A DNA stretch of 64,000 nt, from the NCBI RefSeq assembly GCF_030013205.1, contig NZ_CP122648.1; one strand, 5' to 3'. The stretch is from Escherichia coli. GTDB taxonomy: Bacteria > Pseudomonadota > Gammaproteobacteria > Enterobacterales > Enterobacteriaceae. The position numbers are program-made. This document shows positions 14,301 through 17,220 of the stretch, piece by piece (within the stretch, counting starts at the first letter, position 1; each line of letters opens with the position of its first letter).

Positions 14301-17220
14301 ATGGCTCGCACAAAACTGAAATTCCGGCTGCATCGGGCAGTGATTGTCCTGTTCTGTCTTGCCTTGTTAGTGGCGCTGATGCAGGGGGCGTCATGGTTTA
14401 GTCAAAACCACCAGCGACAGCGTAATCCGCAGCTGGAAGAACTGGCCCGCACCCTGGCGCGTCAGGTGACGCTGAACGTTGCACCGCTGATGCGTACCGA
14501 CTCACCGGATGAAAAACGCATTCAGGCGATCCTCGATCAGTTAACGGATGAAAGCCGTATCCTCGACGCGGGTGTGTATGACGAACAAGGCGATCTTATC
14601 GCACGTTCTGGCGAAAGCATCGAAGTGCGCGACCGGTTGGCGCTCGACGGCAAAAAAGCGGGCGGCTATTTTAACCAGCAGATTGTCGAGCCAATTGCGG
14701 GTAAAAACGGACCGCTCGGCTATCTGCGCCTGACGCTCGACACCCATACGCTCGCCACCGAAGCCCAACAGGTGGATAACACCACTAACATTTTACGCCT
14801 GATGTTGCTGCTCTCGCTGGCAATCGGCGTAGTGCTGACCCGCACGCTGCTACAGGGTAAACGCACCCGCTGGCAGCAATCGCCCTTCCTGTTAACCGCC
14901 AGCAAACCGGTGCCGGAAGAAGAAAGCGAGAAAAAAGAGTGACCCATTACTACAAGAAAGGAAATCGTTATGTCCACATTACGCCTGCTCATCTCTGACT
15001 CTTACGACCCGTGGTTTAACCTGGCGGTGGAGGAGTGTATTTTTCGCCAGATGCCCGCCACGCAGCGCGTTCTGTTTCTCTGGCGCAATGCCGACACGGT
15101 AGTGATTGGTCGCGCACAGAACCCGTGGAAAGAGTGTAATACCCGGCGGATGGAAGAAGATAACGTCCGCCTGGCGCGGCGCAGCAGCGGTGGCGGCGCG
15201 GTGTTCCACGATCTCGGTAATACCTGCTTTACCTTTATGGCTGGCAAGCCGGAGTACGATAAAACCATCTCCACGTCGATTGTGCTCAATGCTCTGAACG
15301 CGCTCGGCGTCAGCGTCGAAGCGTCCGGACGTAACGATCTGGTGGTGAAAACCGCCGAAGGCGACCGCAAAGTCTCAGGCTCAGCCTATCGCGAAACCAA
15401 AGATCGCGGCTTCCATCACGGCACCTTGCTACTCAATGCTGACCTTAGCCGTCTGGCAAACTATCTTAACCCGGATAAAAAGAAACTGGCGGCGAAAGGC
15501 ATTACCTCGGTACGTTCCCGCGTGACCAATCTGACCGAATTGCTGCCAGGGATCACCCATGAGCAGGTTTGCGAGGCGATTCGAGAGGCCTTTTTCGCCC
15601 ATTATGGCGAGCGCGTGGAAGCAGAAATCATCTCCCCGGACAAAACGCCAGACTTGCCAAACTTCGCCGAAACCTTTGCCCGCCAGAGTAGCTGGGAATG
15701 GAACTTCGGTCAGGCTCCGGCATTCTCGCATCTGCTGGATGAACGCTTTACCTGGGGCGGTGTGGAACTGCATTTCGACGTTGAAAAAGGCCATATCACC
15801 CGCACCCAGGTGTTTACCGACAGCCTCACCCCCGCGCCGCTGGAAGCCCTCGCCGGACGACTGCAAGGCTGCCTGTACCGCGCAGATATGCTGCAACAGG
15901 AGTGCGAAGCGCTGTTGGTTGACTTCCCGGAACAGGAAAAAGAGCTACGGGAGTTATCGGCATGGATGGCGGGGGCGGTAAGGTAACTCGCTGATTAAAA
16001 TATCCAGGGAAGGAAATATGATCGATCTGGAAAACCAGGAACGGGAGATTATCAATTTAATGTTCAGCCAGGGTATATCCTGGATAACTGCCGTGCGTAT
16101 CAGGCATAAACTATCACTTGCTGAAGTAAGTAAAATGTTAGGTATCTCCATTAATTCTCTAATACAGATCGAAAAGACGGAACGGCTTAGTTCAAACATC
16201 AAAAGCAAAATGGCAGGAATTTATGGTTGTCCACCAGAGTTGCTGATATGCCCTTCCTGGATGACGGCTGAACATAAATGAATAGATTCGTGAATAGATA
16301 CTTGAATGGATTTTATTTTCTATCCATATGAAAAATAATAGTAAATCTATAAATCAGTTGCTATTGATGAATAGATACTAAAAAGCCGGAGCAGTCTCCC
16401 GCTCCGGCTTCACAAGGCAATCGCCTTTCAGCGAAACACAATTACTCTTTATCGCCCAACAGAACGGATTCCAGTGCGATTTTGATCATGTCGTTGAAGG
16501 TGGTCTGACGCTCAGCGGCAGTGGTCTGCTCGTGAGTGCGGATGTGGTCAGACACGGTGCAGATGGTCAGGGCTTTCGCGCCAAATTCTGCAGCGACGCC
16601 GTAGATACCAGCTGCTTCCATTTCCACGCCGAGGATGCCGTATTTTTCCATCACGTCGAACATTTCGCCGTCCGGAGAGTAGAACAGGTCAGCGGAGAAC
16701 AGGTTACCAACGCGAGCATCAACGCCCAGTGCTTTAGCCGCGTCTACCGCGTTACGCACCATGTCAAAGTCAGCGATAGCGGCAAAGTCATGGTCTTTAA
16801 AACGGATACGGTTAACTTTGGAATCGGTGCAGGCACCCATACCGATAACGACGTCGCGCAGTTTTACGTGTGGCAGAACAGCGCCACAGGAGCCTACGCG
16901 GATAATTTTCTTCACGCCGAAATCGGTGATCAGTTCTTTGGTGTAGATGGAGCAGGACGGGATACCCATACCGTGACCCATTACGGAAATTTTGCGGCCT
17001 TTGTAAGTACCGGTGAAGCCCAGCATACCGCGAACGTTGTTCACTTCACGGGCATCTTCAAGGAAAGTTTCAGCAATATACTTCGCACGCAGCGGGTCGC
17101 CTGGCATCAAAACTACGTCAGCGAAATCGCCCATTTCTGCATTAATGTGTGGGGTAGCCATTGTTTTATCCTTTTTGTGACATAACAAAGGCGGAGTCAA
17201 CGCTCCGCCCAAATCCATCA

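What the first reader, a model, noticed from the sequence alone, without database searches (positions are those of the whole stretch)
15987..16441. yjjJ position occupied by a small HTH gene and TGAATAGATAC direct repeats
Between lplA and deoD, where I expect the roughly 1.3-kb HipA-like kinase gene yjjJ, there are only about 455 bp. They contain an 87-aa XRE/Cro-type HTH ORF co-oriented with lplA, then an AT-rich stretch with three copies of TGAATAGATAC-like repeats before the deoD terminator. This is a strain-specific replacement of a toxin-like kinase locus; the repeats could be a binding array for the small HTH protein.
Basis: partly seen in the sequence, partly recalled or inferred. Interest (0 to 1): 0.3.

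Follow-up and report, generated by a model that had tools for sequence, protein, structure and literature searches.

The report
Orphaned hipH operator beside decaying HTH gene
In this E. coli strain the toxin-like kinase gene hipH (yjjJ) has been swapped for a small, often-broken DNA-binding gene, and the repeats next to it are hipH's own widely conserved, apparently undescribed control element, left behind without its gene.

Summary
Between lplA and deoD there are 455 bp holding an 87-aa XRE-type HTH ORF and TGAATAGAT repeats: three tandem units with a 12-bp period, plus a fourth unit 65 bp further on.

- **Not strain-specific.** This is one of two mutually exclusive alleles. Of 5426 complete E. 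coli genomes, 4068 carry the small-HTH allele and 1348 carry yjjJ/hipH.
- **The repeats do not belong to the small HTH gene.** In K-12 the same array abuts the hipH start codon.
- **The array travels with hipH.** In 59 of them a hipH homologue (31-95% identity, beta- and gammaproteobacteria) starts right beside it.
- **The architecture is fixed.** There are 2-5 units at 12 bp and a distal unit at 65-66 bp, or one helical turn more or less.
- **Motif and protein co-vary.** Two plasmid hipH genes with altered recognition helices have altered repeats in the same geometry.

The array is therefore most likely the operator of HipH's own winged-HTH domain, orphaned here. That binding is inferred, not shown.

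The 87-aa protein resembles the DNA-binding half of phage ParE-associated antitoxins. It is weakly constrained and carries a nonsense codon in 1690 genomes.

Interest is moderate.

The parts
14970..15986 (+). lplA (lipoate-protein ligase), left boundary of the variable slot
   Evidence: 338-aa ORF. Annotated as lplA in identical and K-12-like genomes.
15987..16272 (.). AT-rich replacement segment that occupies the place of the hipH/yjjJ coding sequence
   Evidence: The segment analysed was 15987-16278. It has no detectable DNA or protein similarity to yjjJ: local alignment score 18-24 against a shuffle mean of 19.7, and best tblastn E 0.097. Its G+C is 40% against 54% for yjjJ. Homology to K-12 breaks at the lplA stop and resumes at the hipH start codon.
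16018..16281 (+). 87-aa XRE/Cro-type HTH gene ('HTH87'), intact in this strain; its TGA stop is the first three bases of repeat unit 1
   Evidence: Pfam HTH_3, 24.3 bits against a cut-off of 23. AlphaFold model with pLDDT 89.5; best Foldseek matches are XRE-family domains, probability 1.0 but E 0.016-0.2. 36% identical to residues 46-121 of a phage RelB-like+HTH_3 antitoxin next to a ParE-family toxin. dN/dS 0.15-0.6 against 0.05 for lplA.
16273..16275 (-). Relic of the hipH start codon (CAT on + strand), followed on the - strand by only a 27-codon ORF
   Evidence: K-12 reads CAT-TAA-TGAATAGAT and the window reads CAT-AAA-TGAATAGAT. Translation of the - strand.
16279..16311 (+). Proximal tandem array: TGAATAGAT (16279), TGAATAGAT (16291), TGAATGGAT (16303), 12-bp period
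   Evidence: The start-codon-plus-array block is 38/40 identical to the array that abuts the hipH ATG in K-12, ST131 and E. albertii. The same tandem motif lies next to hipH homologues in 59 of 120 loci from a scan of one genome per species.
16312..16367 (.). Spacer between the proximal array and the distal unit; conserved in length, not in sequence; presumed site of the former hipH promoter
   Evidence: Only 22/54 aligned positions are identical to K-12, while the array (38/40) and the distal unit plus terminator (78/79) are conserved. The 65-bp start-to-start offset equals the modal 65-66 bp in hipH loci. No consensus sigma-70 match was found in either allele.
16368..16376 (+). Distal repeat unit TGAATAGAT
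   Evidence: A distal unit is present in 37 of 59 hipH loci, at an offset of 65-66 bp in 29 of them.
16382..16411 (-). deoD intrinsic terminator hairpin (13-bp stem) followed by UUUUU, running into the distal unit
   Evidence: RNA fold -32.3 kcal/mol, z = -4.2. Perfect 10-nt inverted arms (I7).
16442..17161 (-). deoD (purine nucleoside phosphorylase), right boundary

Best explanation
The 455-bp gap is the common hipH-less allele of the lplA-deoD slot. Ancestrally, across Enterobacterales, this slot held hipH (yjjJ), a HipA-like Ser/Thr kinase with an N-terminal winged-HTH domain. hipH was transcribed towards lplA from a control region made of three parts:
- 2-5 tandem TGAATAGAT units with a 12-bp period, abutting the start codon;
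- a spacer of fixed length;
- one distal unit about 65 bp away.

I infer that HipH's own HTH domain binds these units. Several molecules would sit on the tandem units and contact the distal unit on the same face of the helix, enclosing the promoter and autoregulating hipH.

In the lineage of this window, the hipH coding sequence, from just inside its start codon to its stop, was replaced by 286 bp of AT-rich foreign DNA. That DNA carries, in the opposite orientation, an 87-aa XRE-type HTH gene derived from the DNA-binding half of a ParE/RelE-associated antitoxin. The control region was left behind as an orphan. It now lies at the 3' end of the new gene and has no cognate protein encoded in the locus. 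The 87-aa gene is probably read through from lplA, is under weak constraint and is decaying in much of the species.

**Shown:** the anatomy, the allele frequencies, the association of the array with hipH and its architecture, the fold classes, and the pseudogenisation.

**Inferred:** that HipH binds the array, that the promoter lies in the spacer, and that the orphan array has no function of its own.
For: **Same array at the hipH ATG**
- It is present in K-12, ST131 and E. albertii. Homology between the two alleles breaks exactly at the lplA stop and at the hipH start codon.

**Association with hipH across species**
In 59 of them a hipH homologue (31-95% identity) starts beside the array in the expected orientation. 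These span Enterobacterales, Xanthomonadales-type genera, Burkholderiales and others.
- By eye, a CAT lies within about 0-10 nt of the array in most of them.

**Fixed architecture**
- Tandem unit counts among the 59 loci are 3 units in 32, 2 in 23, 4 in 3 and 5 in 1.
- A distal unit is present in 37 of 59. Its offset is 65-66 bp in 29, and otherwise 54-55, 76 or 86-87 bp in most cases, which are steps of about one helical turn.
- The window has 3 units plus a distal unit at 65 bp.

**The array moves with hipH**
- It accompanies hipH in unrelated contexts, including E. coli 90-100 kb plasmids.

**Co-variation of helix and motif**
- About 58 loci with the canonical motif keep the recognition helix S-Q-x-T-x-S-R.
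- Vitreoscilla has helix SVATLHR and repeats ATCTTCTCA. Polaromonas has helix SRATLMR and repeats ATCGTTTCA.
- Both keep the 12-bp tandem pair and the 66-67 bp spacing.

**HipH's DNA-binding domain**
- Residues 1-55 model confidently (pLDDT 92.7) as an ArsR/SmtB-type winged HTH.
- Published work shows the HTH is needed for toxicity and nucleoid localisation, and that regulation acts at the hipH promoter region (PMC11452175).

**hipH is ancestral in this slot**
- It lies between lplA and deoD in Citrobacter, Pseudocitrobacter, Pluralibacter, Siccibacter, Cedecea and others.

**Orphan arrays recur**
- They are found without hipH in L048, Serratia L057 and L121, and Pantoea-like L092 and L112.

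**The 87-aa gene (HTH87)**
- It has the XRE fold and is related to a phage antitoxin.
- Its dN/dS is 0.15-0.6.
- The Q50 nonsense haplotype is in 1690 genomes, and frameshifts also occur.
Against: - **Published negative result.** ChIP-exo of myc-tagged YjjJ in K-12 detected no binding sites under the conditions used (PMC8464067). This is negative and condition-dependent, but it bears directly on the inferred step.
- **No promoter match.** No consensus sigma-70 promoter was found in the spacer of either allele.
- **No room for a Shine-Dalgarno sequence.** The array abuts the start codon, so an RNA-level or translational role for the repeats cannot be excluded.
- **Unexpectedly high conservation of the orphan array.** The array is present in 5263 of 5426 E. 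coli genomes although only 1348 have hipH. In the window allele the array is 38/40 identical to K-12 while both sides of it are unrelated. That is more conservation than a useless relic would be expected to show, unless the allele is young or was imported with the array.
- **Motif not universal.** Of six plasmid hipH loci found through the protein, only one had the canonical motif. One had a TATTCA-core tandem array, two had variant repeats in the same geometry, and two had only a single near-match (Aeromonas, Diaphorobacter).
- **Thin co-variation.** It rests on two variant cases.
Confidence: 0.68

Rival explanations
1. One reading: the TGAATAGAT units are an operator array for the 87-aa XRE-type protein, which would use them to regulate itself or its neighbours.
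For: - The two are adjacent, and the ORF's stop codon is part of unit 1.
- The junction between ORF and repeat is shared with the distant homologue in L123, where a degenerate unit TGAACAGAC overlaps the stop.
- The array is retained in nearly all genomes with this allele.
Against: - The array predates the gene and accompanies hipH in 59 loci that lack it.
- The array lies 3' of the ORF.
- L123 keeps an intact 87-aa ORF but has lost the array.
- 1690 genomes carry a stop at codon 50, before the recognition helix, and the array is fully canonical in the one such strain examined, L139.
- XRE/Cro domains classically bind palindromes as dimers, not head-to-tail repeats with a 12-bp period (established knowledge). 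The fold is unrelated to HipH's winged HTH.
- There is no sequence similarity to HipH.
Confidence: 0.06
2. The array has a function that does not depend on the chromosomal hipH. It could be bound by another host factor, or by HipH paralogues arriving on plasmids or phages. It could still drive a promoter that now fires antisense into the 87-aa gene and the lplA 3' end. That would explain why it is kept in hipH-less genomes.
For: - The array is present in 97% of E. coli genomes but hipH in only 25%.
- Array 38/40 identical, spacer 22/54 and left flank 3/16 between the two alleles.
- Orphan arrays persist in Serratia and Pantoea-like genomes and in L048.
- In L048 a DUF2238 gene has been placed exactly at the hipH ATG, as if to use the control region.
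- 31 E. coli plasmids carry a hipH paralogue; the canonical units were seen upstream of it in the one plasmid examined, pE2-2.
Against: - Within the hipH-less allele the array decays at about the same rate as its surroundings: whole-unit deletions in L135 and L137, point changes in E. marmotae, and unit 3 already TGAATGGAT in most strains.
- L123 has lost the array.
- No other factor is conserved across the diverse hosts that share the motif.
- Only one array locus per genome was detected.
Confidence: 0.16
3. The repeats act at the RNA level as the hipH 5' leader, for example as an AU-rich translation enhancer or a binding site for an RNA-binding regulator, rather than as a DNA operator.
For: - The array abuts the start codon (0-10 nt) with no Shine-Dalgarno sequence in most lineages.
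- ChIP-exo found no YjjJ-DNA binding.
- HipH is reported to phosphorylate the RNA-binding regulator CsrA (title and section headings of PMC9948734).
Against: - The distal unit lies upstream of any plausible promoter and keeps helical-turn spacing from the tandem units. That is a DNA-geometry signature with no obvious meaning in RNA.
- The repeat sequence co-varies with the HTH recognition helix.
- In Vitreoscilla and Polaromonas the tandem pair is the distal element and only one unit is proximal.
- No Rfam family matches.
Confidence: 0.1

Closest known systems
hipBA autoregulation: HipB (XRE HTH) with HipA bound to four TATCC-N8-GGATA operators
   Same: A HipA-family kinase locus controlled through an HTH domain and multiple operator copies around its promoter. 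PMC8262856 proposes that HipH's fused HTH may replace the separate DNA-binding antitoxin.
   Different: - Here the HTH is fused to the kinase and is an ArsR-type winged helix, not XRE.
- The sites are head-to-tail direct repeats with a 12-bp period plus a distal unit, not palindromes.
- Binding has not been demonstrated.
- In the window the kinase is absent.
HipH/YjjJ family (clade X of the Hip kinase tree), monocistronic
   Same: The K-12 allele of this very locus is the type member. The array is its upstream region.
   Different: The window carries no hipH. Only the upstream region and the start codon remain. The repeat array is not mentioned in the HipH papers I could read, and a full-text search for the 9-mer, of which I examined the 15 top-ranked of 371 papers, showed no bacterial-operator paper.
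Phage and plasmid ParE/RelE-family toxin with a downstream RelB-like+HTH_3 antitoxin (e.g. Pasteurella phage Pmp14 genes 0032/0033; Enterobacteria phage PPyecE_EH1910)
   Same: The 87-aa protein aligns at 36% identity (pairwise E 2e-13) with the C-terminal HTH domain of these 122-124-aa antitoxins.
   Different: It lacks the 45-residue N-terminal RelB-like segment, has no toxin gene next to it, and sits in a chromosomal housekeeping context. It is a solo DNA-binding domain.
Direct-repeat operators of response regulators (e.g. TorR 'tor boxes': three clustered decamers plus one distal; PhoB boxes)
   Same: Several head-to-tail copies of a short motif, with one copy set apart around a promoter (recalled from established knowledge, not tested here).
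   Different: Different protein family and different motif, with a 12-bp rather than a 10-11-bp period. This is only an architectural analogy.

Membership tests
HipH/YjjJ toxin-kinase locus | A HipA_C kinase gene with an N-terminal HTH domain is present | tested here: not met
   No similarity to YjjJ anywhere in 15987-16278 at DNA or protein level. K-12 has the 443-aa gene here, matching NCBIfam PRK09775 at 676 bits.
HipH/YjjJ toxin-kinase locus | The upstream region is homologous to that of hipH | tested here: met
   Start codon plus tandem array 38/40 identical and distal unit plus terminator 78/79 identical to K-12. The architecture matches that of 59 hipH loci.
XRE/Cro-CI HTH family (Pfam HTH_3) | Sequence match above the Pfam gathering score | tested here: met
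   24.3 bits against a cut-off of 23, E 3.2e-5, residues 25-76. This is marginal.
XRE/Cro-CI HTH family (Pfam HTH_3) | Five-helix Cro/CI-type fold | tested here: met
   AlphaFold model with pLDDT 89.5. The top Foldseek PDB matches are CylR2, C.BclI, SinR-N, P22 c2 and 434 Cro, with rmsd 1.6-2.2 A over 53-60 residues and probability about 1.0. The E-values are modest, 0.016-0.1.
Type II antitoxin (HigA / RelB-HTH type) | Adjacent cognate toxin gene | tested here: not met
   Only lplA lies upstream (31-bp gap) and the repeat array downstream. No toxin-like ORF is present. The phage relatives do have a ParE-family toxin immediately upstream.
Type II antitoxin (HigA / RelB-HTH type) | Toxin-neutralising segment outside the HTH domain | tested here: not met
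   The alignment covers residues 46-121 of the 122-aa phage protein. The RelB-like N-terminal part has no counterpart in the 87-aa protein.
Autoregulatory operator of the adjacent small HTH gene | Sites lie upstream of or overlap the regulator's promoter, and co-occur with the regulator across genomes | tested here: not met
   The array is 3' of the ORF. It occurs in 59 loci without the ORF. The ORF occurs in L123 without the array.
Operator of HipH's N-terminal wHTH | Specific protein-DNA binding | not testable with these tools
   Only indirect support is available: association, fixed geometry, and co-variation of helix with motif. A published ChIP-exo experiment was negative.
HipB-type operator (TATCC-N8-GGATA palindromes) | Inverted-repeat half-sites | tested here: not met
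   The units are direct repeats. No palindrome of that type was found in 15900-16500.
Known structured RNA (Rfam) | Match to any covariance model | tested here: not met
   No match at E up to 1 on either strand of 15900-16500.

The most novel reading that the evidence does not exclude
The TGAATAGAT array is a functional element in its own right, and E. coli keeps it whether or not hipH is present. It could be a landing or titration site for HipH-type winged-HTH proteins arriving on plasmids or phages, since some E. coli plasmids carry a hipH paralogue with identical units. It could be a still-active promoter module that different cargo genes are slotted into at exactly the same boundaries: hipH, DUF2238, and in reverse orientation the 87-aa gene. 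The lplA-deoD slot would then be a small, recurrent gene-swap site defined by the array.
Probability: 0.12. Interest if true: 0.6.

Novelty: new member of a known kind. Interest (0 to 1): 0.42.

Why it matters
HipH/YjjJ is a persistence- and biofilm-linked toxin kinase. PMC8262856 states that how its activity is controlled remains unknown. PMC11452175 reports that c-di-GMP control acts at the promoter region.

A conserved element with defined geometry next to hipH in dozens of species gives a concrete candidate operator. It can be tested by EMSA, footprinting and reporter mutagenesis. Natural variants of both helix and motif are available for specificity swaps.

For genome interpretation, three quarters of complete E. 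coli genomes lack hipH and carry an orphaned control region beside a frequently pseudogenised antitoxin-like HTH gene. K-12 and ST131 are therefore not representative for this toxin. The small 'HTH regulator' annotated in most E. coli should not be assumed to be functional.

Tried and rejected
- **Is the 286-292-bp segment a degraded or inverted remnant of yjjJ?** Rejected. Local DNA alignment is no better than shuffles, and tblastn finds nothing meaningful. BLASTP of the 87-aa protein against YjjJ finds nothing.
- **Does the 87-aa protein have a wider family?** The word-indexed search found only Escherichia and Shigella. The exhaustive HMMER search added one 40%-identical homologue and generic XRE hits. 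A search seeded with that homologue found only itself. The PDB sequence search found nothing.
- **Is there an RNA element?** No Rfam match.
- **Are there sigma-70 promoters or terminators in the gap?** The consensus scan gave nothing beyond chance in either allele. The deoD terminator was confirmed by folding instead.
- **Is the motif already published?** A full-text search for TGAATAGAT or ATCTATTCA matched 371 papers; the 15 top-ranked that I examined were unrelated (eukaryotic or primer contexts). The HipH papers do not mention operators. A Reg-Seq preprint lists yjjJ among its targets but gives no detail in the text.
- **Is there a solved structure of HipH?** None found by sequence.
- **Is the motif universal in the family?** A protein-first sample of six plasmid hipH loci showed it is not.
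- **Not run:** the costly metagenome scan for an unbiased hipH sample, because the pattern scan and the plasmid sample were judged sufficient.
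Full report
**1. What is there**

In the window, lplA (14970-15986, +) and deoD (16442-17161, -) converge on a 455-bp gap. The gap holds these features:
- An 87-aa ORF at 16018-16281 (+), which I call HTH87, with a good ribosome-binding site.
- Three tandem 12-bp-period units starting at 16279 (TGAATAGAT), 16291 (TGAATAGAT) and 16303 (TGAATGGAT).
- A 56-nt AT-rich spacer.
- A fourth unit at 16368.
- The deoD terminator hairpin at 16382-16411, whose U-run leads straight into that fourth unit.

The gap has 33-41% G+C against 51-61% in the flanks. The ORF's TGA stop is the first three bases of unit 1.

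**2. Comparison with K-12 and the species**

A K-12-type genome has the 1332-bp yjjJ/hipH gene in this slot. It is co-oriented with deoD, and its stop abuts the lplA stop. The same three tandem units lie immediately before the hipH start codon, and the fourth unit follows the deoD terminator.

Between the two alleles the pattern of identity is a mosaic:
- Sequence to the left of the start codon is unrelated (3/16).
- The block CAT-nAA plus the tandem array is 38/40 identical.
- The spacer is unrelated in sequence (22/54) but equal in length.
- The distal unit, the terminator and the end of deoD are 78/79 identical.

The replaced segment shows no residual similarity to yjjJ at DNA or protein level.

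Among 5426 complete RefSeq E. coli genomes, 4068 carry the HTH87 allele and 1348 carry yjjJ. The two counts add up to 5416 of the 5426 genomes, which fits two alternative alleles. Per-genome exclusivity was not checked directly. O157:H7 and Nissle 1917 have HTH87. K-12, ST131 and CFT073 have hipH. E. marmotae and other Escherichia lineages carry HTH87. The E. albertii representative carries hipH. This is an old dimorphism, not a strain peculiarity.

**3. What the repeats are**

In 59 of them a hipH homologue (31-95% identity to YjjJ) begins right beside the array, on the strand opposite to the motif as written. The hosts range over several groups:
- Enterobacterales: Citrobacter, Pseudocitrobacter, Pluralibacter, Siccibacter, Cedecea, Erwinia, Pantoea, Mangrovibacter.
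- Rhodanobacter, Dyella and Luteibacter.
- Comamonadaceae, Dechloromonas, Chitinimonas, Rheinheimera and others.

The rest are mostly matches in AT-rich genomes with no detectable hipH nearby, probably chance; I did not examine them individually. A few are orphan arrays, described below.

The architecture is stereotyped:
- There are 2-5 tandem units at exactly 12 bp.
- By inspection, a start codon lies within about 0-10 nt.
- In 37 of 59 loci there is a distal unit. Its start lies 65-66 bp from the last tandem unit in 29 cases.
- In most of the other cases the offset is 54-55, 76 or 86-87 bp, which are steps of one helical turn.

The window has this architecture exactly (offset 65).

As a protein-first control, six plasmid-borne hipH homologues were examined:
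- An E. coli plasmid family has canonical units.
- Comamonas has four 12-bp-period units with a TATTCA core.
- Vitreoscilla has ATCTTCTCA-type units and Polaromonas has ATCGTTTCA-type units. Both show a 12-bp tandem pair and a 66-67-bp spacing.
- Aeromonas and Diaphorobacter show only single near-matches.

The N-terminal recognition helix is S-Q-x-T-x-S-R in essentially all canonical-motif loci. It is SVATLHR in Vitreoscilla and SRATLMR in Polaromonas. The motif therefore changes where the helix changes, while the geometry stays the same.

HipH residues 1-55 model with high confidence as an ArsR/SmtB-type winged HTH.

The most economical reading is that the array is the operator set of HipH's own DNA-binding domain. 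This would be a fused-domain counterpart of HipB-operator autoregulation at hipBA, which PMC8262856 anticipated in general terms without naming any site.

**4. Limits of that inference**

Binding is not shown here. A published ChIP-exo screen found no sites for myc-tagged YjjJ in K-12 under its conditions (PMC8464067). No consensus sigma-70 promoter is detectable in the spacer. The array leaves no room for a Shine-Dalgarno sequence, so an RNA-level role cannot be excluded. The helical phasing of the distal unit and the helix-motif co-variation argue for a DNA-level role. The co-variation rests on two cases only.

**5. What the 87-aa gene is**

HTH87 is a genuine XRE/Cro-type domain:
- Its Pfam HTH_3 match is just above the cut-off.
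- Its AlphaFold model has pLDDT 89.5, and its best PDB matches are CylR2, C-proteins, SinR-N and P22 c2.

Close homologues exist only in Escherichia and Shigella. One 40%-identical, equally long homologue (P0081) sits in the same position between lplA and deoD on a short contig from an unidentified enterobacterium. That contig's lplA is about 80% identical in DNA to E. coli's. There the array is reduced to one degenerate unit that overlaps the stop codon.

The nearest relatives elsewhere are the C-terminal HTH domains of 122-124-aa RelB-like+HTH_3 proteins encoded just downstream of ParE-family toxins in a Pasteurella phage and an enterobacterial phage. The match is 36% identity with pairwise E 2e-13. 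HTH87 lacks their N-terminal part and has no toxin partner. It looks like a solo, truncated antitoxin DNA-binding domain.

Constraint on it is weak:
- dN/dS is 0.15-0.6 against 0.05 for lplA in the same genomes.
- A Q50-to-TAG haplotype, which truncates the protein before the recognition helix, is present in 1690 complete genomes.
- Frameshifted copies also occur.

In this window the gene is intact.

**6. Why the small protein is unlikely to use the array**
- The array is older than HTH87 and far more widespread.
- The array lies 3' of the ORF.
- The array is canonical in the sampled nonsense-allele strain, L139.
- L123 keeps the ORF without the array.
- The two HTH domains belong to different fold classes.

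Within the hipH-less allele the array shows ordinary decay: whole-unit deletions in L135 and L137, point changes in E. marmotae, and unit 3 already degenerate.

**7. Evolutionary scenario**

hipH, with its array, lies between lplA (or ytjB) and deoD in many Enterobacterales, so it is the ancestral occupant. Loss with retention of the array has happened repeatedly:
- Serratia (L057, L121) and Pantoea-like genomes (L092, L112) have orphan arrays.
- In L048 a DUF2238 membrane-protein gene occupies the hipH slot from stop to start codon.
- E. coli WB61 retains only the first 140 nt of hipH.

In the window allele both the coding region and the spacer differ completely from the hipH allele, while the units are the same. 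This suggests that the allele arose in, or was imported from, a diverged lineage that already had the same operator architecture.

One puzzle remains. The array is found in 5263 of 5426 E. coli genomes, although only a quarter encode HipH. I cannot tell whether this reflects youth, hitch-hiking or a residual function. This is the basis of the 'novel case'.

**8. Verdict**

The locus is a common, ordinary polymorphism as far as the small gene is concerned.

The by-product is more interesting: a conserved, geometrically constrained repeat element tied to hipH across Proteobacteria. It is not mentioned in the HipH papers I could read, and the top-ranked hits of a full-text search for the 9-mer were unrelated. 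It makes HipH regulation directly testable.

I rate it as a new member of a known kind, namely an operator array of an autoregulated toxin-like gene, here orphaned, next to an orphan antitoxin-like HTH gene. Interest is 0.42.

Noticed in passing
L048:560-1400 (Enterobacteriaceae bacterium RIT691): A 217-aa DUF2238 membrane-protein gene occupies exactly the hipH slot. Its stop is 3 nt from the lplA stop, and its ATG abuts the TGAATAGAT array (CAT|TGAATAGATTCGTGAATAGATAC). Three different cargoes (hipH, DUF2238, HTH87) are swapped at the same two boundaries, and the precision is unexplained.
   Followed up: partly
L144:2449-2640 (E. coli WB61): A third allele: hipH is reduced to its first ~140 nt, the stub that encodes the HTH, and is annotated as a partial 'transcriptional regulator'. 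The array is intact apart from a C in the distal unit.
   Followed up: partly
L130:400-610 (E. coli plasmid pE2-2) and 30 similar 90-100 kb plasmids: A plasmid family carries a hipH paralogue about 35% identical to YjjJ. In pE2-2, the one plasmid examined, two canonical ATCTATTCA units lie upstream. Such a paralogue could in principle recognise the chromosomal orphan array.
   Followed up: partly
L007-L011 (Verrucomicrobiaceae MAG RPOS01, five contigs): An identical sequence with TGAATAGATatgTGAATAGAT lies upstream of a 354-aa P-loop/AAA-type ATPase gene on five contigs of one MAG. This is a multicopy element with no hipH; relation to the hipH array unknown.
   Followed up: no
window 16018-16281 compared with L132 (E. 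marmotae-type sequence): The window's HTH87 gene is nearly identical to the E. marmotae-type sequence (dS 0.04), while the adjacent lplA differs at dS 0.30. This suggests recombination across the locus. Only 131 of 5424 matching genomes reach 99% identity or more to the 601-bp query spanning the gap (window 15900-16500).
   Followed up: partly
L123:864-1371 (unidentified enterobacterium, Logan DRR526040): The only distant homologue of HTH87 (40% identity, same length) lies at the same lplA-deoD position. It is followed by REP-like palindromic sequence instead of the array. The organism is unidentified.
   Followed up: partly
L057, L121 (Serratia) and L092, L112 (Pantoea-like): Orphan TGAATAGAT arrays lie next to ytjB, with deoD or a yjjG-like gene on the other side, and no hipH. 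Related genomes (L089, L098) have hipH there. hipH loss with array retention is therefore recurrent.
   Followed up: partly
window 16195-16275 (- strand): The retained hipH start codon now opens a 27-codon ORF (MFSRHPGRAYQQLWWTTINSCHFAFDV) antisense to HTH87. If the old promoter is still active, it would produce antisense RNA across HTH87 and the lplA 3' end.
   Followed up: no
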